Shown: positions 7,066 through 60,246 of the stretch, piece by piece | How the letters are laid out: every line of letters starts with the position of its first letter | How positions within the stretch are numbered: the first letter of the stretch is position 1 | Source: Alphaproteobacteria bacterium | GTDB lineage: Bacteria; Pseudomonadota; Alphaproteobacteria; Bin95 | Assembly: GCA_965206075.1 (NCBI GenBank) | Contig: CBDBIS010000001.1 | Span: 12,928 to 76,927, forward strand | Direction: 5' to 3' | DNA length: 64,000 nucleotides | Program-made: the position numbers and the translations under genes | Notes under the pieces: model-generated | Seen by the model: the letters and a program-made list of their open reading frames with translations, nothing else | Database searches by the model: none | What the model was told of the DNA's origin: nothing

Positions 7066-7092
7066 TGTCATGAGATGTCATGTTTTGTCATG
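7066..7092 (+). repeat. Iteron array A: 3x TGTCATG direct repeats, 10-bp period
   Basis: gaTGTCATGagaTGTCATGtttTGTCATGttcc read directly from the sequence. Confidence 0.9.
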
Positions 7093-7169
7093 TTCCCCAT
7101 GTGTAGGTCTTATGTTCTAGAGCGCGATCCGTTCGAGTTGAAACGGACTTACCGGTAAAGCCTCAATCG

Positions 7170-7450
7170 TCACCCCGGACGGTGCGCCAGCGGCGATCCG
7201 GGGTCCATCTTCCGGCATTTCCACCGGACTGAAACGGCAGTGGATGGGCCCCGGATCGGGGTCCGGGGCGACGAATTGGGTCAAGGACGGCAGCGTTTAG
7301 GGCGGAGCCCGATCTGTATGGATCGCAATTCAGTCCAAACCCGGAATTGTCGCCCCGGCCTCCGAGCCGGGGCCCAGTACCGCCGGCGCAACACGGCGGA
7401 GACCCGATTGCCTGGACCCCGGATCTCCGCTTCGCTCCGTCCAGGCATAA
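7170..7450. repeat. Cluster of REP/RIME-like GC-rich hairpin units (GTCACCCCGG..CCGGGGTCC / GGGCCCCGG..CCGGGGCGAC types)
   Basis: Four palindromic units at ~7170-7212, 7247-7280, 7350-7388 and 7410-7445. Near-identical units recur at >10 other sites in the window. Confidence 0.85.
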
Positions 7451-7548
7451 CGCCCGACCTGCCGTGCTTCCCTCCGTGTCGCGGGAGAGAAGCTTCGCGG
7501 CGGAAATCCGGGCCTACGGACCCGAAACCCCCGCGATGCGTCATCGGA

Positions 7549-7574
7549 TGTCATGTTCTGTCATGTTTTCCATG
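7549..7574 (+). repeat. Iteron array B: TGTCATG x2 + degenerate TCCATG, 10-bp period
   Basis: gaTGTCATGttcTGTCATGttttCCATG. Followed by hairpin GGGCATattcgaATGCCC. Confidence 0.85.
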
Positions 7575-7735
7575 CGCACGGGGCATATTCGAATGCCCGT
7601 TCCGGCATGACGCCGTCCTTTCCCGCGGGGTCTTGGGGTATTCCTCCCTGTTCCGGTGCCTGTCTGTCTTCGGCATAGGTCCCTCCTCTCGACCCGGTTT
7701 CACTCCCACCGGGCGGTTGGCGGCGGGACCCTTTT

Positions 7736-7850
7736 TGCGCGCGTATCCTGCGTGCGCGCCCGCGCCCGGCCGCCCGCGTCTTGCGCCGACGCGGTTCGTG
7801 CGCCTGATTGCGCGCGCGAGACGCCGGACGCACCTGTCCCGTCGCCTCCC
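7736..7850 (-). repeat. ~115-bp conserved GC-rich segment (copy 1). It is the paralog of the leader upstream of the TerS-like gene at 32926-33040
   Basis: Shared blocks ttttgcgcgcgt.tc..gcgtgcgcg ... gcggttcgtgcgcctgattgcgcgcg.gag.c.gga.g.gcac.t.gcctgtc between the two loci. Confidence 0.8.
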
Positions 7851-7924
7851 GCCGGGGCTTTTTTGCGGGCCCCAGTCCTTGCTTCCCTCTGCAGAAAAGC
7901 CGAAAGGCGGCCCCGGAAGCCGCC

Positions 7925-7962
7925 TCTCTCCACTCTCATCATACTACACTTTTCTCCAGGTC
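7925..7962 (-). promoter_or_regulatory. Putative sigma70-type promoter (minus strand) in an AT-rich islet, reading toward the conserved segment and array B
   Basis: Minus-strand reading gCTTGACctggagaaaagtgtagTATGATgag (TTGAC - 16 bp - TATGAT). Adjacent palindrome GAAAAaTTTTC. Confidence 0.4.
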
Positions 7963-8027
7963 AAGCCCTCTGGCGGGAAAAACATGAAAATTTTTCTAAT
8001 TTCCTGCCACAAGCCGAACGGCGCGCG

Positions 8028-8230
8028 GGCGGGAGCCATGGACGAACCCCGGTTCGGGGGCCGGGGTGACAATTGAGAGGCCGCCCCTCTTTCTCCCCTC
8101 GCTTGCGGGAGGGGCCGGGGGACGGCCCACTCTCTCAACCCGACGGGTCTTTGCCGGGCTTCGCCCACCGCTTCCGCTGGCGCGCAAGCGGTCCCCTCAC
8201 CCAACCTCTCCCCGCAAGCGGGGAGAGGGG
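8028..8230. repeat. RIME-like hairpin plus 'ccctcaccc/ctccccgcaagcggggagagggg' repeat family
   Basis: The motif family recurs at 33170-33470 and 43380-43520 (gcttccgc..gcggaagcgg, ctctcccc..ggggagag palindromes). Confidence 0.75.
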
Positions 8231-8328
8231 GAAACGCCGATGCGCCCGATGATCCCCGCAAGCGCCCCCTTGTCGCCCCGAACCCCGGATCGCAGTCCGG
8301 GGCGGAGATACGAGGACGCGGTCTTCCT

Positions 8329-8596
8329 GTGATACCAGCGGCTCCGGTTTGTGACTCATGGAGATCGCCGCCCGGTTTTCCCTCTGCGTCACCCCGGCCG
8401 GAGCGAAGCGGAGAGCCGGGGTCCATCCATGGCTCTCGACGATGCCGTAGCCGGTGGGGAGCAGGCTCGACCGCTGAAGTTGCCGCGAGAACCGAGGCTG
8501 GGCCCCGGCTCGGGGGCCGGGGTGACGGCGGGCGCCATCACAATAGGTTCCGATCGACGACCGCTGGTATGAGCCCCAAGTTGAGGCCGCTGGTAT
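8329..8596. repeat. MITE-like composite element bounded by GTGATACCAGCGG ... CCGCTGGTATGA inverted repeats with internal RIME hairpins
   Basis: Near-identical copy at 43565-43881 (identical spurious peptides in the ORF track at 8329 and 43565). Inverted copy at 54693-54990. Confidence 0.85.
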
Positions 8597-31874: not shown

Positions 31875-31901
31875 TGTCATGGAGTGTCATGAAATGTCAT
31901 G
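31875..31901 (+). repeat. Iteron array C: 3x TGTCATG, 10-bp period, overlapping the 3' end/stop of the TerS-like gene
   Basis: aagTGTCATGgagTGTCATGaaaTGTCATGttc. The gene's stop codon (TGA on the minus strand) lies inside repeat 2. Confidence 0.9.
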
Positions 31902-32876
31902 TTCGAGGGCGGAACCGGCGTCCTCCGGCCCGGTCTTCCTCTTCTTCTTTTTCTTCTTCTTTCCCGTCGCCGGTCCACTCCAGCCACCGTCTTCGCCGCC
32001 CTGCCATTCGTCGCGTTCGATCCGATCCCGCCTTCGCTCCTCGCGTTCGGCCGGCGACCAGGGGTCGTAGATGTCGGCGTAGCCGTTGCGGCGCTGGTAG
32101 AGCCAGTCGTGCTCCGCGCCGTCGGCCCGGTCGTCGTCGATCATGCCGTCAGTCCGGTCGTCGTAGGCGGACCTGTCGTCGCCGGCCCAGGGGCAGTCTT
32201 CATAGGCCTCCTCGGGCGGGTCGTCGGCGGGCGGCAGGTCGTTTGCCGGTGCGGGCGGGGTCTCGAAGCCGACGGGCAGGCATGCGCGCTCCTCGACCGC
32301 CCCGGCGAGCCTCCGGGCGGCCTCCTCATGCGCGGCTTCGTCGAAACCCTCCTGCGCCTCCAGTTCCTCGCGGCTTTCGCGGTGGCGGGCGAGCGCGCGT
32401 TCGGCCCGGTCCCGGCCCCGGCGCACGGCCTCGGCCAAGGGTCCGGGCTCGGTGCCGACCTCAAGCGCCTCGCCCGCCTCGATCTCTCCGAGTTCGTCCT
32501 CGTGCGGCAGCGGCCAGAGCCGGGCGCGGGCTCCGCCGGCGGGCGCGACCAGCCCGGCAATCTCCGCCTGGAAGCGCAGGACCCGGAGCATGGTATAGGC
32601 GGACCCGCTGGCAACGGCCGCATCCCACGCCTGCTCCAGCCGGGCCAGCACGATCTGCGCCTCGTCGCGCTCGGTGCGCTTCCAGGACAGGCGGATGCGC
32701 CGCAGGCGCTCCACCACATAGGGGCGTTCGAGCAAGGCGCATCCGGTCTGGCGGGCGGAGCGCTCGGAATAACCGGCCTGCCTTGCGGCGCCGGCGGCAT
32801 TGCCGGAGACGGCATAGTGGCGGCAGAAGGCTTCCTGACGGGTGGAGAGGGCAATGGCGGGCTGGATGATGGGCAT
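31887..32876 (-). CDS. Orphan phage terminase small-subunit (Terminase_2/P27-family HTH) domain protein with long acidic tail and poly-Lys C-terminus
   Basis: N-terminal LSTRQEAFCRHYAVSGNAAGAARQAGYSERSARQTGCALLERPYVVERL matches the TerS DNA-binding domain. The rest is D/E-rich low complexity ending KKKKKKKRK. AGGAG RBS before MPIIQ. No large terminase or other phage genes nearby. Confidence 0.7.
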   Translation of the reverse strand: MPIIQPAIALSTRQEAFCRHYAVSGNAAGAARQAGYSERSARQTGCALLERPYVVERLRRIRLSWKRTERDEAQIVLARLEQAWDAAVASGSAYTMLRVLRFQAEIAGLVAPAGGARARLWPLPHEDELGEIEAGEALEVGTEPGPLAEAVRRGRDRAERALARHRESREELEAQEGFDEAAHEEAARRLAGAVEERACLPVGFETPPAPANDLPPADDPPEEAYEDCPWAGDDRSAYDDRTDGMIDDDRADGAEHDWLYQRRNGYADIYDPWSPAEREERRRDRIERDEWQGGEDGGWSGPATGKKKKKKKRKTGPEDAGSALEHDIS

Positions 32877-33135: not shown

Positions 33136-33592
33136 AAGCCCCTGTCCCGAATTTATTTTCGAGACCTTCGGGAAAGACCCGTCGCGCCGGGAGGGAGAAG
33201 CCGCGCGCATCTCTCCTCTCCCCGCTCCCGCTGCTGCCGGTGGAAAGCGGGCCGGGGTTCGGGGGACAGGCGGCCTTCCTCTTTTCCCCCTCCCTCGCTT
33301 GCGAGGGAGAGCCTGCCCCGGACCGCGATCCGGGGGCCGGCGTGGGAGCCTCTCTCTCGGCGTGACGGGCGGTTGCCGGGGCTTCGCCCGCCGCTTCCGC
33401 AGGCGGAAGCGGCCCCTCACCTTGCCTTCTCCCTGAGGGAGAGGGTCTTCCGGGAGTGTGTTTCCGTCCTCTCCGTCATGGGGACCGGCGCGCCCACCGC
33501 TTTCGCCAGGGCAGGCGGTGGGATGGCATTCTCTGTGAGTTGCAACCCGGCGCCGTCGGTATGGGTTCTCCGGGAGCGCGGCCGGGAACCGC

Positions 33593-35534: not shown

Positions 35535-35724
35535 CCCGGTAGCTGCGGAAGCCTTTGCCTGTCCGGCGGGTGCATTTGCCGCAATATCCTTCCTGACAGT
35601 TCGGTCCGGCAGCACGAAGGGTGCCCTCACGCGCGCGTTCGAGTTCGCCTAACGTCTTGTATTGGGAAATCAAAATGCAATTTTCGGAAAATTAGATGCA
35701 AAAAACGCATATCGGGCCAACGGT

Positions 35725-35975
35725 CATCGATCGGAACCGATTGCGGGGCCGTCGCCCCGGACCCCGATCCGGGGCCCATCCCTGAACGGAGAGGCGCGCA
35801 CAGCCGGCCGTTACAGGGCGGATGCCCTCGGCAACCCTTCATTTGCACCGCCCAAGCAGGTCGAGATGGCCGGAGATGGGCCCCGGATCGGGGTCCGGGG
35901 CGACGATATGGAGACGCAATCTGCGTATAAGTTCGAAGTTGAGCCCGCTGGTATCGGGTGCGGTATGGAACCGGA
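35725..35975. repeat. Composite RIME/MITE-like repeat block
   Basis: GGGCCCCGGATCGGGGTCCGGGGCGAC and CCCGCTGGTAT units shared with other copies. Confidence 0.75.
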
Positions 35976-43174: not shown

Positions 43175-43564
43175 GGCCTGCCTGCGACCTCCGACTGCCG
43201 CTCCCGCCAGCGGCCGGACCCTATCTAGGTGCGAAGCCCGCCCTGCGCAATGGCGGGGACCGCCCGGATTGCCCGGCACGCCGAGAGGCCCTCCTCCGGC
43301 CCCTCCCGCAAGCGCTACTGGATTCGCACATCGGCGCCCGGTGGCGTGGCATTGCATAACCCCGACCTCCTGTCCTCGCGAAAGCGGGAGTCGCCCCGGT
43401 CCCCATGACGAAGGGGGCGCAACACGCCCCCGGAAGACCCTCTCCCTCGGGGAGAGGGCAGGGTGAGGGGCCGCTTCCGCCTGCGGAAGCGGCGGGCGAA
43501 GCCCCGGCAACCGCCCGCCCAGCAAGGCTAGCAAGCGTACCGAATACAAGCCAGCAAGAGAGGT

Positions 43565-43881
43565 GTGATACCAGCGGCTCCGGTTTGTGACTCATGGAGA
43601 TTGCCGCCCGGTTTTCCCTCTGCGTCACCCCGGCCGGAGCGAAGCGGAGAGCCGGGGTCCATCCATGGCTCTCGACGATGCCGTAGCCGGTGGGGAGCAG
43701 GCTCGACCGCTGAAGTTGCCGCGAGAACCGAGGCTGGGCCCCGGCTCGGGGGCCGGGGCGACGGTTGGTGTAGTGCAATACCACACCACCAAGCGGAAAT
43801 GTGTGAATCCAGTAGGGCTCGGGGGCCGGGGTGACGGTGGGGGCCGTCACCATAGGTTCCGATCGGCGACCGCTGGTATGA
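43565..43881. repeat. MITE-like element, near-identical copy of 8329-8596 (GTGATACCAGCGG...CCGCTGGTATGA TIRs) with an extra internal hairpin unit
   Basis: Aligns almost base-for-base with the 8329 copy. Appears to interrupt a small minus-strand ORF fragment (43895-44075). Confidence 0.85.
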
Positions 43882-52335: not shown

Positions 52336-52343
52336 ACAGCTAG
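51387..52343 (+). CDS. IS481-family DDE transposase
   Basis: MNVHKNAKLTPRGRAEIVRRV N-terminal HTH and rve integrase core (DIKKLGRF...YTPRTNGKAERF). Confidence 0.92.
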   Translation: MNVHKNAKLTPRGRAEIVRRVIDQGQTPKAVATAFGVCERTVRKWVRRFQAEGAEGLRDRSSRPHTLRRPTPAPVVRRIAALRRRRWSGAQIAAQLGVSTATVSRVLRRLGLNRLKALEPPQPVRRYERENPGELIHIDIKKLGRFDRPGHRVTGDRTGQSNARGIGWEYLHVCIDDHSRVAFSQILPDEKKESAIAFLNAAIAYYKSLGVAVSRVMTDNGSCYRAHAFRDACKTRGLKHIRTRPYTPRTNGKAERFIQTALREWAYVRAYQNSGQREHHLPHWLHRYNWHRPHGSLKANTPISRLRLTQDNLLMLHS

Positions 52344-52492
52344 AGCACGGTCCGTTCCGGTTGCAACGGGGCCGAATGCGCGGCTCCAGGTGTCACCCCG
52401 GACGGAGCGAAGCGGAGATCCGGGGTCCAGGCAGTCCAAGTCTCTGCCAGGTTGCAGCGGCGTTACTGGGCCCCGGCTCGGAGGCCGGGGCG
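52342..52492. repeat. ~110-bp repeat (AGAGCACGGTCCGTTCCGGTTGCAACGGGG...) plus RIME hairpin; copy A abutting the IS right end
   Basis: Near-identical copy at 58607-58727. Confidence 0.85.
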
Positions 52493-52664
52493 GCAATTTC
52501 GAGCTTGGCCCGAAATACGGTCCAATCGGAACGGATTCTGCCCTAACTCGGAGAGGTGCGAGGTGGGCAGGGCATTCGCGACGAGATGTAGCCGCGGCGG
52601 CCCGGGTCAATTCCGCCATCCGTTTTTACACCCAGGCCGCAGCGCCTGGGCAACTTCGGGGTGG

Positions 52665-53502: not shown

Positions 53503-54690
53503 TCACGTCACCCGCGCGCGGACCCGGTATTTCGGATCGCGCCAGAGCTCTTGTGCGATCACGGTTTCGAGGGTTTCGACGGCGGCGAGCACGTCGGCCT
53601 CGTCGAGATAGAGCGGCGTGAAGCCGAAGCGCATGATGTCGGGCGCGCGGAAGTCCCCGATCGTGCCCCGGTCGATCAGCGCCTGCATGGCGGGATAGCC
53701 GTGCTCGAAAGCGAAGGACACCTGCGAGCCGCGTTCGGCCGGGTTGCGCGGCGAGGCGAGCGCGAGGCCGGGGCAGCGGGCCTCGACCTCGGCGATGAAC
53801 AGCTCGGAAAGCGCGATGGAGGCCGCGCGAATCTCCGCCATGTCGACGCCCTCCCACACGTCCAGCGCCCGGTCCAGGATGGCGAGTTGCACGACGGGCG
53901 GCGTGCCGACCCTGAGCCGCTCTGTGGACATAGCCGGGCGGTAGTCGGGCTCCATGGCGAAGGGCGCCTCATGGCCCAGCCAACCCGCCAGCGCCGGCTC
54001 GACCTCCTCCACGATGTCGGGCCGGACATAGATGAAGGCCGGCGCGCCGGGGCCGCCGTTGAGATATTTGTAGGTGCAGCCGACGGCGAACTCCGCCCGG
54101 CTTGCGGCCATGTCTATCGGCAGGGCGCCGGCGCTGTGGGCGAGGTCCCAGATCATCGCCGCGCCGGCATCGTGGGCGCCCCTTGTGATCCGGTCCATGT
54201 CGTGCAGCCGGCCGGTGCGGTAATCGACTTGCGTCAGCATGACCGCCGCGACTTCGCCGGAAATGTTGCTCGGCAGGTCTTCCGGAGCAGGCGTGCGCAG
54301 CTCGTAGTCCTTGCCGATCGTGCGGATCAGCCCCTGGGCCATGTAGAGGTCGGAGGGGAAGTTGCCGGAGTCCGAAAGGATTACCCTGCGTTCCGGGCGC
54401 AGTTTCAGGGCTGCGGCCAGCGCCTGATAGACCTTGATCGACAGCGTGTCGCCGGTCGCGACGGAGCCCTCGGGCGCGCCGATCAGCCGGGCGATCCGAT
54501 CGCCCACATGTTGCGGCAGCGACATCCAGCCGGCCGTGTTCCAGGCGCGGATGAGTTCCTGCCCCCATTCCCCGACGATCGCGGCGCGCGCGCGTTCGAG
54601 GGCTCCTTTGGGCAGGGGGCCCAGGGAGTTTCCGTCGAGATAGACCACCCCGTCGGGCAGGTCGAAAAGCTCTTTCCTCGGCAGGTTCAT
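53503..54690 (-). CDS. kynU: Kynureninase
   Basis: PLP fold-type I sequence with the characteristic kynureninase N-terminus (YLDGNSLGP) and PLP-lysine region (TYKYLNGGPG). Confidence 0.88.
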   Translation of the reverse strand: MNLPRKELFDLPDGVVYLDGNSLGPLPKGALERARAAIVGEWGQELIRAWNTAGWMSLPQHVGDRIARLIGAPEGSVATGDTLSIKVYQALAAALKLRPERRVILSDSGNFPSDLYMAQGLIRTIGKDYELRTPAPEDLPSNISGEVAAVMLTQVDYRTGRLHDMDRITRGAHDAGAAMIWDLAHSAGALPIDMAASRAEFAVGCTYKYLNGGPGAPAFIYVRPDIVEEVEPALAGWLGHEAPFAMEPDYRPAMSTERLRVGTPPVVQLAILDRALDVWEGVDMAEIRAASIALSELFIAEVEARCPGLALASPRNPAERGSQVSFAFEHGYPAMQALIDRGTIGDFRAPDIMRFGFTPLYLDEADVLAAVETLETVIAQELWRDPKYRVRARVT

Positions 54691-54692
54691 GG

Positions 54693-54990
54693 CTCATACC
54701 GGTGGTTGTCGATCGGAACCGATGTCGCTTGCAGCCGGAAATCTCCTCTCCCGCTTGCGGGGAAGGTTATACCAGCGGTCGTCGATAGGAACCGATGGCG
54801 GCCTCCCCCATCGTCACCCCGGCCTCCGAGCCGGGGTCCATCCATGGCTCCCGATGCCGCCGCAGTCGGTGGAGAACAGGGTGAACCGGCGAGGCTGCCG
54901 CCAGAACCGAGGCTGGGCCCCGGCTCGGGGGCCGGGGCGACGGGTTGGGTGGCATTCTTCATGAGTCGCAACCCGACGCCGTTGGTATCA
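54693..54990. repeat. Inverted-orientation MITE-like composite element with degenerate TACCAGCGG TIRs
   Basis: Shares the internal RIME hairpin and TIR with the 8329 and 43565 copies, in opposite orientation. Confidence 0.8.
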
Positions 54991-55199
54991 GGTGGGCCGC
55001 TTCCGCGTCAGCGCAAGCGGCGGCGGCGCCGTATTTCGTAGTGCTCGTCGCGTTCGGCCCGTCGGCGGGCGAAGCCAGGCAAAGGCACGTCACGCTGAGA
55101 GGCCCCGGGCCCCTTCCGCCGGGCGGGAGGGGAGCATGACGAAGCGCTCCCGAACATCGGTCTCGCGTTGAGCGCATTCGGATTACCTCGGGACCCGGC

Positions 55200-58602: not shown

Positions 58603-58606
58603 GGTT

Positions 58607-58981
58607 AGAGCACGGTCCGTTCCGGTTGCAACGGGGCCGAATGCGCGGCTCCAGGTGTCACCCCGGACGGAGCGAAGCGGAGATCCGGGGTCCAGGCAGT
58701 CCAAGTCTCTGCCGGGTTGCAGCGGCGTTATACCAGCGGCCCCAACCTGGGACTCATAGGGAGACCGCGTCCTCATATCGTCGCCCCCGCGAAGGCGGGG
58801 GCCCATCTCCGGACCTTTCGGCCTGCCTCGGCGGCACAAACGGAGTGCTGCCGAGGGCGCGTCCGCCCCGTAACGGCCGGCTGTGCGCGCCTCCCGGTTC
58901 AGGGATGGGCCCCCGCCTTCGCGGGGGCGACGAACAGGGGCGCCGCCGCTATCGGTTCCGGTCAATGACCGCTGGTATTAC
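58607..58981. repeat. Copy B of the 110-bp repeat, then a TACCAGCGG-bounded MITE containing a 28-bp-arm inverted repeat (GTCGCCCCCGCGAAGGCGGGGGCCCATC)
   Basis: 58607-58727 is near-identical to 52342-52459. 58728-58981 is bounded by TTATACCAGCGGC / GACCGCTGGTATTA. Confidence 0.8.
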
Positions 58982-60246
58982 TGGGCCCCGGCGTCCGACA
59001 GGTCCAGCATGGCGCCCTGTTTCCTCAGCGCCTGGCGGACGGCGGCGACTCCGAAGCGGCCGTCGGCTTCGAGCGCGGCGGCGATGCCGGCCGCCTGGCC
59101 GGTCGCGTAGGCGGTGCCCATGACCCGGATGGCGGCCCCGGCCTTCCGGTCCCCGTCGGCGAGGCGCCCGGCGCAGAACAGGTTCGCCGTGTCCGCGCTG
59201 CGCAGGCAACCGAGCGGTATCTCGTAGGCGCCGCGCTCCGGCGGGTAGTCGTAGGTGCTCCAGTACGTGGCACGGTCGTGCCATTCCGCGCCCCAGCCGC
59301 CGAGCGCGATACAGTCGTCGAACCGCGTCCGATTTTCGATGTCGGCCCAGGCGAGCTGCCGCAGGCAGTTGAGATGCCGCGACTCGCGCGTGCCGAATTC
59401 CGGGCCCGTTGCGACGAGATAGGCGTTTTCGCAGCCTTCGACGGTCCGGAGCGCGTCCAGATAGACCCAGGCCTGCCGCCGGCCCCGGGCCTCCGCTGCC
59501 GACATGGAGAGGCTGTCGCGCGGGTCGTAGTCTTCCGAAGCGAGATAGACCACGAGATCGCCCGATATGGGCAGGCGCGCGACGACGCTGCGGTCCTTGG
59601 TGACGGCGTTCGCCTTCGCTCCCAGGCCCGCTACCGCCTCCGCAATGCGCTCGGCCGTCACGGGCACGGAAGGGGCGATGCCGCCGAACCGCGTGCCGAG
59701 CGTGCCGAGATTGATGTCGGCGCCGTTGCCGTAGCGCGTGCTCGCGCCGGCGAAGGCGGCGAGGTCGCCTTCTCCCGTGCAATCCACGAAAGCCCTGGCG
59801 GAGAAGGTCGCAAGGCCGGAATGGCCGGCGACCGCGATGCTGCGCATCCGGCCGTTGCGCCGCTCCGCGTCGGCGACGAAGCTGGAGAACATCACGGTCA
59901 CGCCGGCCGCCGCAGCGAGGTCGTCGAGGACGGGTTTCACCGCTTCCGGCTCGAAGGTGACGAACACGCCCCGGTGCCGGTGCGGCCCGTCGACGGCGCC
60001 CCGCCTGCGCAAGCCCTGCATGACCTCTTCGGCGACGCCGCCGACGACGCGGCGCGGCGTCTCCCCGAGCGTGTAGAGGCCGCAATAGGTGACGACGTTG
60101 CGCATCGTCGCTGCGCCGCCCAGGCAGTTGTAGCGCTCGACGAGAAGCGTCCGGGCGCCCAGGCGCGCGCTCGCCACCGCTGCCGCCACGCCCGCCGACC
60201 CGCCGCCGGCGACGATGACATCGTAGTTTTCACGATCGGCCGTCAT
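58978..60246 (-). CDS. FAD-dependent oxidoreductase
   Basis: DVIVAGGGSAGVAAA dinucleotide-binding motif. FAD_oxidored family. Confidence 0.8.
   Translation of the reverse strand: MTADRENYDVIVAGGGSAGVAAAVASARLGARTLLVERYNCLGGAATMRNVVTYCGLYTLGETPRRVVGGVAEEVMQGLRRRGAVDGPHRHRGVFVTFEPEAVKPVLDDLAAAAGVTVMFSSFVADAERRNGRMRSIAVAGHSGLATFSARAFVDCTGEGDLAAFAGASTRYGNGADINLGTLGTRFGGIAPSVPVTAERIAEAVAGLGAKANAVTKDRSVVARLPISGDLVVYLASEDYDPRDSLSMSAAEARGRRQAWVYLDALRTVEGCENAYLVATGPEFGTRESRHLNCLRQLAWADIENRTRFDDCIALGGWGAEWHDRATYWSTYDYPPERGAYEIPLGCLRSADTANLFCAGRLADGDRKAGAAIRVMGTAYATGQAAGIAAALEADGRFGVAAVRQALRKQGAMLDLSDAGAQ

What the first reader, a model, noticed from the sequence alone, without database searches (positions are those of the whole stretch)
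8329..8596. Family of MITE-like elements with TACCAGCGG terminal inverted repeats carrying RIME-type hairpins (at least 5 copies)
Near-identical copies occur at 8329-8596 and 43565-43881 (identical fortuitous peptides in the ORF track). An inverted copy lies at 54693-54990, with related blocks at 35725-35975 and 58728-58981. All are bounded by (GTGA)TACCAGCGG ... CCGCTGGTA(TGA) and carry GTCACCCCGGCC..AGCCGGGGTCC and GGGCCCCGGCTCGGGGGCCGGGG hairpins inside. They dominate the intergenic space, and one copy (43565) appears to truncate a small ORF. The non-autonomous structure implies a trans-acting transposase elsewhere in the genome.
Basis: seen in the sequence. Interest (0 to 1): 0.5.

Follow-up and report, generated by a model that had tools for sequence, protein, structure and literature searches.

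The report
IS630-derived miniature transposon family
These repeats are real miniature non-coding transposons: stripped-down copies of an IS630-type insertion sequence that insert at T-N-A triplets (often a gene's stop codon) in uncultured Alphaproteobacteria, which makes them an ordinary kind of selfish DNA with a few unusual details.

Summary
TACCAGCGG occurs 10 times in the window against 0.24 expected. Four complete elements carry it as terminal inverted repeats: A 8333-8569, B 43569-43878, C 54770-54987 and D 58731-58977. There is also one decayed copy (E 35715-35953) and at least three fragments.

They are dispersed transposons, not segmental duplications.
- Similarity between copies stops exactly at the ends.
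- Each element is flanked by a 3-bp direct repeat TNA. The two flanks are identical in 30 of 38 element calls across the window and related genomes (the window's copy C is counted twice among these 38).
- Two empty-versus-filled site comparisons show precise insertion with TNA duplicated.
- The right-end motif recurs in at least 16 species-level alphaproteobacterial metagenome-assembled genomes, with at least 32 loci in one of them.

The predicted trans-acting transposase was found. Elements of about 1.17 kb encoding IS630-family transposases (HTH plus DDE_3 domains) have the same TACCAGCGG...GACTCA left end and GGTTC...CCGYTGGTA right end. In finished or long sequences they show the same TNA duplication in 10 of 10 cases.

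The inside of the element is a mosaic of GC-rich REP-like hairpins around a core that occurs in both orientations.

The "RIME" label could not be tested, and the claim that copy B truncates an ORF is unsupported. Overall this is a new member of a known kind. The TNA duplication, rather than the canonical TA, is the only unusual feature.

The parts
8333..8569 (+). MITE copy A (237 bp), oriented left end to right end. Flanked by TGA at 8330-8332 and 8570-8572.
8570..8595 (-). Left end of an older reverse-oriented copy (A0): TACCAGCGGCCTCAACTTGGGGCTCA. Copy A inserted at the TGA inside its CATGAGTC motif. The rest of A0 continues upstream of A, from about 8291 to 8329.
   Evidence: comparison with the reverse complement of D read
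43569..43878 (+). MITE copy B (310 bp). It equals A plus a 73-nt module with a duplicated hairpin arm at 43765-43837. Flanked by TGA at 43566-43568 and 43879-43881.
54770..54987 (-). MITE copy C (218 bp). Its ends are inverted relative to A but its hairpin-core-hairpin part is direct. Flanks are TTA (54767-54769) and TCA (54988-54990).
54697..54766 (-). Right-end portion of decayed copy F, into which C is nested. F resumes at 54991 and ends in a decayed left end near 55150-55195. Its terminus lies 6 bp from the kynureninase start codon at 54690.
   Evidence: (L033 and L070 as intact models of this subfamily)
58731..58977 (+). MITE copy D (247 bp). Flanked by TTA at 58728-58730 and 58978-58980. 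The right-hand TTA is the stop codon (TAA on the minus strand) of the oxidoreductase gene 58978-60246.
52341..52477 (+). Paralogous empty site for D: an uninterrupted copy of a second repeat family reading GCGGCG-TTA-CTGGGCCCCGGC, with the TTA at 52463-52465.
   Evidence: (D3)
35715..35953 (-). MITE copy E (239 bp), same subfamily as D, with decayed ends (GGCCAACGG / CCGCTGGTA). Flanked by TCG on both sides.
33536..33561 (-). Left end of a further decayed copy (TACCGACGGCGCCGGGTTGCAACTCA). Its internal part, 33366-33522, is an inverted repeat of 43362-43517, just upstream of B.
   Evidence: (I1, I7)
8392..8421 (+). Example of the internal hairpin GTCRCCCCGG-loop-CCGGGGYCC (hairpin 1 of A). Its inverted partner, hairpin 2, is at 8503-8522. 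About 19 such hairpins occur in the window, also outside this family.

Best explanation
[quoted passage not shown] Each keeps roughly the first 30-55 nt and the last 30-35 nt of the parent, including the last codons of the transposase gene, and has no coding capacity. An IS630-family transposase made elsewhere in the genome binds the imperfect terminal inverted repeats of about 28 nt (TACCAGCGG-N10-GACTCATG and CATCGGTTCCGATCAAYGACCGCTGGTA). It then excises the element and re-inserts it at a T-N-A triplet with a 3-nt stagger, so that repair duplicates TNA. In a 68% GC genome TNA triplets are rare. Stop codons and other repeats supply many of the tolerated targets, so copies pile up at gene ends and inside one another. 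The interior is a mosaic of GC-rich REP-like hairpins. The two hairpins flanking the core are inverted repeats of each other, and recombination or template switching between them probably flips the core. What is shown: the element ends, the TNA duplication, precise insertion, dispersal across genomes, and end similarity to IS630-family elements. What is inferred: the actual trans-mobilisation, the cut-and-paste chemistry, and the cause of core inversion.
For: Ends and duplication: 25 of 31 complete elements have identical TNA on both sides, with all four N represented; a looser census gives 30 of 38 element calls, with the window's copy C counted twice. Chance agreement is roughly 0.3, my estimate from the TSD frequencies.

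Empty versus filled sites: within the window, GCGGCG-TTA-CTGGG at 52459-52472 corresponds to GCGGCG-TTA-[D]-TTA-CTGGG. Between two MAGs about 95% identical, L019 reads gggaaTGAaacgc and L038 reads gggaaTGA-[193-bp element]-TGAaacgc.

Flanks of A and B are unrelated, and the repeat families stop at the duplication.

Of these, 73 come from 16 alphaproteobacterial species-level MAGs, 32 of them from one MAG.

Parent element:
- L046 carries TGA|TACCAGCGGTTCTGTGTGCTGACTCATGG followed by a transposase with HTH_29/32/33 and DDE_3 domains.
- The protein's homologues are annotated as IS630 family.
- A metagenome scan for this left end plus the IS-specific GGGGATTC found 119 loci, with 34 full-length elements of 1161-1181 bp ending CCGYTGGTA.
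- MITE ends match IS ends in register at up to 26 of 30 nt (left) and 24 of 30 nt (right), against a mean of 16 for the cross-end control.
- Ten of ten IS copies in long contigs or finished plasmids have identical TNA flanks.
- A related IS end sits at a contig end of a MITE-bearing MAG (L005).
Against: No transposase gene lies in the window, and the source genome itself was not available, so I did not show that an active partner coexists with these copies. The one IS copy seen inside a MITE-bearing MAG with a MITE-type terminus (L046) has a disabling frameshift and a truncated 3' end. Its best intact homologues are only 57-59% identical. MITE ends are 70-87% identical to the best IS ends, not identical. 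Among the 34 full-length IS copies in short-read metagenome contigs, the two TNA flanks agree in only 17, which is chance level at about 0.46. I attribute this to chimeric assembly or recombination across a multicopy 1.2-kb repeat, but did not prove it. By my own knowledge the IS630 family is described as duplicating TA, not TNA.
Confidence: 0.85

Rival explanations
1. The elements are MITEs mobilised by an IS5-family or PIF/Harbinger-like transposase, the families classically associated with 3-bp TNA duplications.
For: The TNA duplication is what IS5-family subgroups and PIF/Harbinger elements produce, by my own knowledge. An IS5-family element of the IS427 type (DUF4096 plus DDE_Tnp_1) abuts a MITE at its TAA in L064 and is tandemly duplicated in L056. 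Its end shares the 9-nt motif GGACTCATA with the MITE's GGACTCATG.
Against: That IS5-type element ends in GGCCGTGKACYCATAAG, not TACCAGCGG, and the shared motif sits at a different distance from the terminus. In contrast, 34 full-length IS630-type elements carry TACCAGCGG...CCGYTGGTA ends in register with the MITE ends, and they themselves show TNA flanks.
Confidence: 0.04
2. The blocks are segmental duplications or gene-conversion tracts of one locus, not mobile elements.
For: A and B are 99% identical over 200 nt.
Against: Similarity stops at the TNA duplication and the flanks are unrelated. Precise presence/absence with TNA duplicated is seen twice. Dozens of copies sit in different contexts in 16 MAG species.
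Confidence: 0.01
3. The elements are REP/BIME- or RIME-type intergenic palindromic repeats, spread by a REP-associated tyrosine transposase or by recombination, with a host function such as transcript stabilisation or termination. On this view the TACCAGCGG ends are incidental.
For: The interior is built from GC-rich hairpins of the form GTCRCCCCGG-loop-CCGGGGYCC. About 19 occur in the window, all intergenic. Some stand alone (8047, 51102) and some lie in an unrelated second repeat family at 52396 and 58661. Single-stranded A folds somewhat better than shuffles, z = -2.4.
Against: What is conserved across subfamilies is the two ends, while the interiors differ completely, as in L014, L018 (143 bp) and L013. 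Inverted-repeat ends plus a fixed-length duplication are the signature of a DDE transposase, not of REP spread. No Rfam family reaches its gathering threshold. No terminator-like site falls inside A. The hairpins may nevertheless be an independent module that colonised the MITE interior.
Confidence: 0.05

Closest known systems
MITEs derived from IS630-family insertion sequences, for example RUP of Streptococcus pneumoniae with IS630-Spn1 (my own knowledge)
   Same: Short non-coding elements whose terminal inverted repeats match the ends of an IS630-family element. They are multicopy and mostly intergenic, and are presumed to be moved in trans.
   Different: The duplication is 3 bp (TNA) rather than TA. 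The interior is a mosaic of GC-rich REP-like hairpins with a core found in both orientations. The hosts are uncultured high-GC Alphaproteobacteria.
The alphaproteobacterial IS630-family clade annotated 'IS630 family transposase' in Rhizobium, Sinorhizobium, Methylobacterium, Sphingobium, Aureimonas and Azospirillaceae
   Same: The ends have the same architecture (TACCA...GACTCA left, GGGTTC...TTGGTA right, with the stop codon inside the right repeat) and the same TNA flanks. This clade is the parent lineage of the MITE.
   Different: Those elements are about 1.16-1.18 kb and encode the transposase, whereas the MITEs have lost it. Exact TACCAGCGG termini were found in metagenome copies and in L046, not in the cultured-strain copies I read (TACCAGCGT, TACCAGCGA, TACCAACGA, TACCGACCT).
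Tourist-type MITEs of PIF/Harbinger, and MITEs of IS5-family subgroups
   Same: A 3-bp TNA target-site duplication.
   Different: The terminal repeats are unrelated and the transposase family is different. The IS5-type element seen in L064 and L056 has different ends.
RIME (Rhizobium-specific intergenic mosaic elements; Osteras et al. 1995, cited in PMC2573895) and REP/BIME elements
   Same: Intergenic, mosaic, built around large GC-rich palindromes, and found in Alphaproteobacteria.
   Different: As far as I know, RIMEs and REPs are not defined by transposase-type terminal repeats plus a fixed duplication. A sequence relationship to RIME1 or RIME2 could not be tested: the original paper is not held, and no Sinorhizobium plasmid matched copy A.

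Membership tests
MITE (miniature inverted-repeat transposable element) | Small size and no coding capacity | tested here: met
   Complete copies are 132-326 bp. The only ORFs are fortuitous translations of the repeat.
MITE (miniature inverted-repeat transposable element) | Terminal inverted repeats | tested here: met
   TACCAGCGG/CCGCTGGTA is perfect at the tips. The left end matches the reverse complement of the right end at 16-19 of 30 nt. The ends are conserved across subfamilies whose interiors are unrelated.
MITE (miniature inverted-repeat transposable element) | Target-site duplication of fixed length, with precise insertion | tested here: met
   Identical TNA flanks in 30 of 38 element calls. 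Two empty/filled comparisons agree. Copy E has TCG on both sides.
MITE (miniature inverted-repeat transposable element) | Multiple dispersed copies | tested here: met
MITE (miniature inverted-repeat transposable element) | Ends shared with an autonomous element that encodes a transposase | tested here: met
   L046 and 34 full-length elements. In-register identity reaches 26 of 30 nt on the left and 24 of 30 nt on the right.
IS630-family derivative | The parent transposase has the IS630-type architecture (N-terminal HTH domains plus a DDE_3 catalytic domain) | tested here: met
   Pfam HTH_29/32/33 and DDE_3 on the L046 ORFs. Homologues are named IS630 family transposase by their sources.
IS630-family derivative | Duplication of a TA dinucleotide on insertion (the canonical family trait, by my own knowledge) | tested here: not met
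   The empty site in L019 (gggaaTGAaacgc) contains no TA, and the filled site has TGA on both sides. The parent IS clade also shows TNA/TNA in 10 of 10 reliable copies. So the deviation belongs to the whole clade, not to the MITE alone.
IS630-family derivative | An active transposase in the same genome as the MITEs | not testable with these tools
   The source genome is not available and there is no transposase in the window. Related MAGs show one decayed copy (L046) and one copy cut by a contig end (L005).
IS5-family or PIF/Harbinger-derived MITE | 3-bp TNA duplication | tested here: met
IS5-family or PIF/Harbinger-derived MITE | Ends shared with an IS5 or PIF-type element | tested here: not met
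   The only IS5-type element found (L064, L056) ends in GGCCGTGKACYCATAAG.
RIME (Rhizobium-specific intergenic mosaic element) | Sequence similarity to RIME1 or RIME2 | not testable with these tools
   No RIME sequence was available. A blastn of copy A against 72,556 plasmids, including Sinorhizobium megaplasmids, matched only short GC hairpins in other genera.
RIME (Rhizobium-specific intergenic mosaic element) | Intergenic mosaic of large palindromes | tested here: met
   This is a resemblance only.
REP/BIME | Association with a REP-associated tyrosine transposase | not tested
   No such gene was searched for. The hairpins also occur outside the MITE.

The most novel reading that the evidence does not exclude
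The MITE and its whole parent clade of alphaproteobacterial IS630-family elements may integrate with a 3-nt stagger at T-N-A (weakly C-TNA-G) instead of the canonical TA of the IS630/Tc1/mariner superfamily. That would be a target rule resembling PIF/Harbinger inside a Tc1-like transposase lineage. In high-GC genomes such a rule makes stop codons a preferred, harmless landing site. If this rule is not already recorded in curated IS databases, it would be a new variant of the family's integration geometry, with many natural substrates available to study it.
Probability: 0.3. Interest if true: 0.5.

Novelty: new member of a known kind. Interest (0 to 1): 0.3.

Why it matters
For annotating this lineage, the family explains a good share of the long repeat-filled intergenic regions and the fortuitous ORFs. 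It also explains why short-read contigs break where they do: many copies lie at contig ends.

Near-identical copies within one genome (A and B, 99%) and a presence/absence difference between MAGs about 95% identical suggest recent activity. That makes the family usable as a strain marker.

The more general point is that a widespread IS630-family clade, including copies in cultured rhizobia and sphingomonads, shows TNA rather than TA duplications. If this is not already curated, IS annotation rules and the picture of target choice in the IS630/Tc1/mariner superfamily need a footnote.

No host function is shown for any copy.

Tried and rejected
- Looking up the window's KatG by exact sequence to find the source genome found nothing.
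- Synteny with L030 around katG ends at the katG terminator, so it gave no empty site.
- A blastn of copy A against plasmids hit only GC hairpins, never the terminal repeats.
- The long pairs of ends in L048 (718 bp), L010 and L052 are two adjacent or composite MITEs, not autonomous elements.
- The 1.76-kb difference between L009 and L014 is an unrelated two-gene insertion.
- The 842-bp repeat in L064 and L056 is an IS5-family element with different ends, so it is not the partner.
- A gapped global-alignment statistic for end similarity was uninformative, because shuffles scored almost as well. I replaced it with in-register ungapped identity plus a cross-end control.
- A strict regular expression for IS right ends lost most copies, so I redid the analysis.
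- I considered a TA duplication with a TNATATNA target. I rejected it because the L019 empty site has no TA and because the two N agree far above chance in MITEs and in finished IS copies.
- A 1-bp duplication with the element defined as ATACC...GGTAT fits most sites equally well, but not copy E (TCG/TCG).
- Rfam gave nothing at gathering thresholds, and only noise at permissive ones.
- Two literature searches found no paper linking IS630 with a TNA or CTNAG target. The original RIME paper is not held.

Full report

Yes. TACCAGCGG or its complement occurs 10 times in the 64-kb window, against 0.24 expected, and none of 100 shuffles reaches 10.

Reading the sequence and running repeat and BLAST analyses gives the following inventory.
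- Four complete elements are bounded by TACCAGCGG ... CCG(C/T)TGGTA:
  - A, 8333-8569
  - B, 43569-43878
  - C, 54770-54987, on the other strand
  - D, 58731-58977
- One copy has decayed tips: E, 35715-35953.
- There are three fragments:
  - a 26-nt left end at 8570-8595
  - a right end at 54697-54720, which belongs to a decayed copy F that surrounds C
  - a left end at 33536-33561

A and B are 99% identical over 200 nt and 92% over the last 66 nt. B has 73 extra nucleotides at 43765-43837.

The window itself is ordinary chromosomal DNA at about 68% GC. It carries katG, an msbA-like gene, a kynureninase gene, dapF and one tRNA.

**2. Dispersed elements or duplicated segments?**

They are dispersed elements.

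The similarity between A and B begins and ends at the triplet next to the terminal repeats, and their flanks are unrelated.

Of these, 73 are from 16 uncultured alphaproteobacterial MAGs, including 32 loci from a single MAG. The remaining locus is a chance hit inside an actinobacterial gene.

L030, from one of these MAGs, is about 88-90% identical to the window across katG. The source organism therefore belongs to this group.

**3. Ends and target-site duplication**

I oriented the complete elements by their distinct left end (TACCAGCGG-N10-GACTCATG) and right end (CATCGGTTCCGRTCAAYGACCGCTGGTA).
- In 25 of 31 elements the trinucleotide on both sides is identical. It is always of the form TNA, and all four N occur.
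- A looser census gives 30 of 38 element calls; among these the window's copy C appears twice, once paired with copy F's right end.

Two independent comparisons show a precise insertion.
- **Inside the window.** A different repeat occurs uninterrupted at 52341-52477, reading GCGGCG-TTA-CTGGGCCCCGGC. At 58606-58992 the same repeat reads GCGGCG-TTA-[D]-TTA-CTGGGCCCCGGC.
- **Between two MAGs about 95% identical.** L019 reads gggaaTGAaacgc where L038 reads gggaaTGA-[193-bp element]-TGAaacgc.

The empty L019 site contains no TA, so the duplication is TNA (3 bp) and not TA. Copy E has TCG on both sides, which looks like an off-target event that again duplicated 3 bp.

**4. The autonomous partner**

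The first clue was the C-terminus of a transposase, followed by ...GTGACCCTTGGTA|TAA, at a contig end in L005.

Its relative in L046 begins TGA|TACCAGCGGTTCTGTGTGCTGACTCATGG, which is the MITE left end. It continues into ORFs with HTH_29/32/33 and DDE_3 domains, the IS630-family architecture. That copy is damaged, and its best intact homologues are 57-59% identical and named IS630 family transposase.

Intact relatives fetched with their DNA have the same end design. The transposase stop codon lies inside the right repeat. The TNA flanks are identical in every reliable case:
- TAA, TGA, TAA, TAA, TAA and TTA in long contigs
- TTA, TTA, TTA and TCA in finished plasmids of Rhizobium, Methylobacterium, Sphingobium and Aureimonas

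A metagenome scan for the MITE terminus joined to an IS-specific motif (TACCAGCGG N9-12 GACTCA N2-6 GGGGATTC) returned 119 loci. Thirty-four of them contain full-length elements of 1161-1181 bp ending in CCGYTGGTA. Several of these carry a transposase split at an A-run, which looks like a programmed frameshift site.

In-register identity between MITE ends and IS ends reaches 26 of 30 nt on the left and 24 of 30 nt on the right. Comparing a left end with a right end gives a mean of 16. The MITE therefore retains a distinct left and right end of an IS of this clade.

No transposase gene lies in the window.

**5. A caveat on the insertion sequences**

In the 34 full-length metagenome copies both flanks are always TNA, but they are identical in only 17. 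That is about chance level, 0.46.

Finished and long-contig copies agree 10 of 10, and the short MITEs agree 30 of 38. The most likely cause is therefore chimeric assembly, or recombination, across a multicopy 1.2-kb repeat. I did not prove this.

**6. Interior anatomy**

Only the ends are shared by all subfamilies; the interiors differ.

In the window's copies the interior runs hairpin 1 (GTCRCCCCGG-loop-CCGGGGYCC), a core of about 75 nt, then hairpin 2, which is the inverted form of hairpin 1.
- **Core orientation.** The core occurs in both orientations relative to the ends. A and C differ in this way, and so do L019/L023/L037 compared with L047.
- **Paired hairpins.** In D both hairpins have changed to the same new stem (GCCCCCGCGAAGGCGGGGGC and its exact complement), so the two arms evolve together.
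- **Hairpins elsewhere.** The same type of hairpin occurs alone and inside a second, unrelated repeat family. It behaves as an independent REP-like module.
- **Folding.** Single-stranded A pairs end with end and hairpin 1 with hairpin 2, but only modestly better than shuffles, z = -2.4.
- **Known RNAs and signals.** No Rfam family passes its threshold, and no promoter-like or terminator-like site falls inside A.

**7. Where the elements land**

- A sits in the TGA of the CATGAGTC motif of an older copy.
- C sits inside copy F.
- D sits inside the second repeat family, and its right-hand TTA is the stop codon of the gene at 58978-60246.
- Across all loci, 22 of 38 elements have an open frame of at least 80 codons ending exactly in one copy of the duplication, and 14 of them have at least 300 codons. 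Some of these loci are orthologous.

In a high-GC genome, stop codons are a guaranteed TNA. Duplicating one leaves the gene intact.

The flanking bases show a weak C-TNA-G preference.

**8. Comparison with known families**

This is a MITE in every tested respect, and it derives from the IS630 family.

It departs from the family's textbook TA duplication, but so does its whole parent clade. The TNA duplication resembles IS5-family and PIF/Harbinger elements, yet the one IS5-type element seen in the loci has different ends.

The RIME label is only an analogy and could not be tested by sequence. The claim that B truncates a small ORF has no support.

**9. Verdict**

The element is a new member of a known kind. 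Its modest points of interest are the 3-bp TNA rule in an IS630-type lineage, the use of stop codons as targets, and the mosaic interior with a core found in both orientations.

Noticed in passing
window 52341-52547, 58606-58730 (interrupted by D), and 7117-7445: A second MITE-like family has ends TAGAGCRCGRTCCGTTCCGRTTG... and ...CAATCGGAACGGATTCTGCCCTAA. It carries the same GTCACCCCGG hairpins. Two copies are 99% identical over 125 nt.
   Followed up: partly
window 7500-8000; also L001, L005, L016, L030, L047, L003, L073: A conserved multicopy module of about 450 nt contains arrays of ATGACA spaced about 10 nt apart, a GC-rich stretch (7729-7850), a terminator-like hairpin (7900-7928) and an AT-rich tail. 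It is 80-86% identical in several related MAGs, often right next to a MITE copy. Its nature is unknown.
   Followed up: partly
window 31880-31910 and 7080-7100; L019 about 1700; L030; L061: Triplets of ATGACA (for example ATGACAAAACATGACATCTCATGACA) recur at gene ends in the window and in related MAGs. They could be read as tiny ORFs (MTKHD...) or as binding-site arrays.
   Followed up: no
window 33366-33522 versus 43362-43517: An inverted repeat, 95% identical over 97 nt plus 80% over a further 61 nt, matches the interior of a MITE subfamily (the ...cttcgcccgccgcttccgc... type seen in L009, L057, L059 and L073). This places decayed copies at 33290-33561 and just upstream of B.
   Followed up: partly
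window 43765-43837; L052 4036-4110; L003; L004: The 73 extra nucleotides of B (GGTTGG...GCAAT...ATGTGTGAATCCRGTAGG, between two copies of a hairpin arm) form a module that recurs inside copies in other genomes. It is not a one-off insertion.
   Followed up: partly
window 58769-58796 and 58905-58932 (copy D): Both hairpins of D carry the same altered stem and are exact reverse complements of each other, while sister copies (E, L002) keep the usual CCCCGG stem. This points to concerted change of the two arms.
   Followed up: no
L064 262-1102; L056 4021-5703: An IS5-family element of the IS427 type (DUF4096 plus DDE_Tnp_1, with an A-run frameshift site) is present as a head-to-tail tandem pair in L056. 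In L064 it directly abuts a MITE at its TAA.
   Followed up: partly
L009 5232-6993 versus L014: A 1.76-kb two-gene insertion (a 428-aa and a 154-aa ORF, not searched against any domain library) is present in one MAG and absent from the orthologous site of a relative that is 89% identical.
   Followed up: no
L142, L085, L147, L140 (full-length IS copies): Many transposase genes of this IS clade are split at FKK(N/T) over an A-run, which is consistent with programmed -1 frameshifting. Others, such as P0004, are a single frame.
   Followed up: no
window 8198-8235 and other sites (e.g. 43450, 33285): Short CCTCTCCCCGCAAGCGGGGAGAGGG-type hairpins are scattered through the same intergenic regions. 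The weak CRISPR-DR10 hit at 8198-8235 (E = 0.33) is noise.
   Followed up: no
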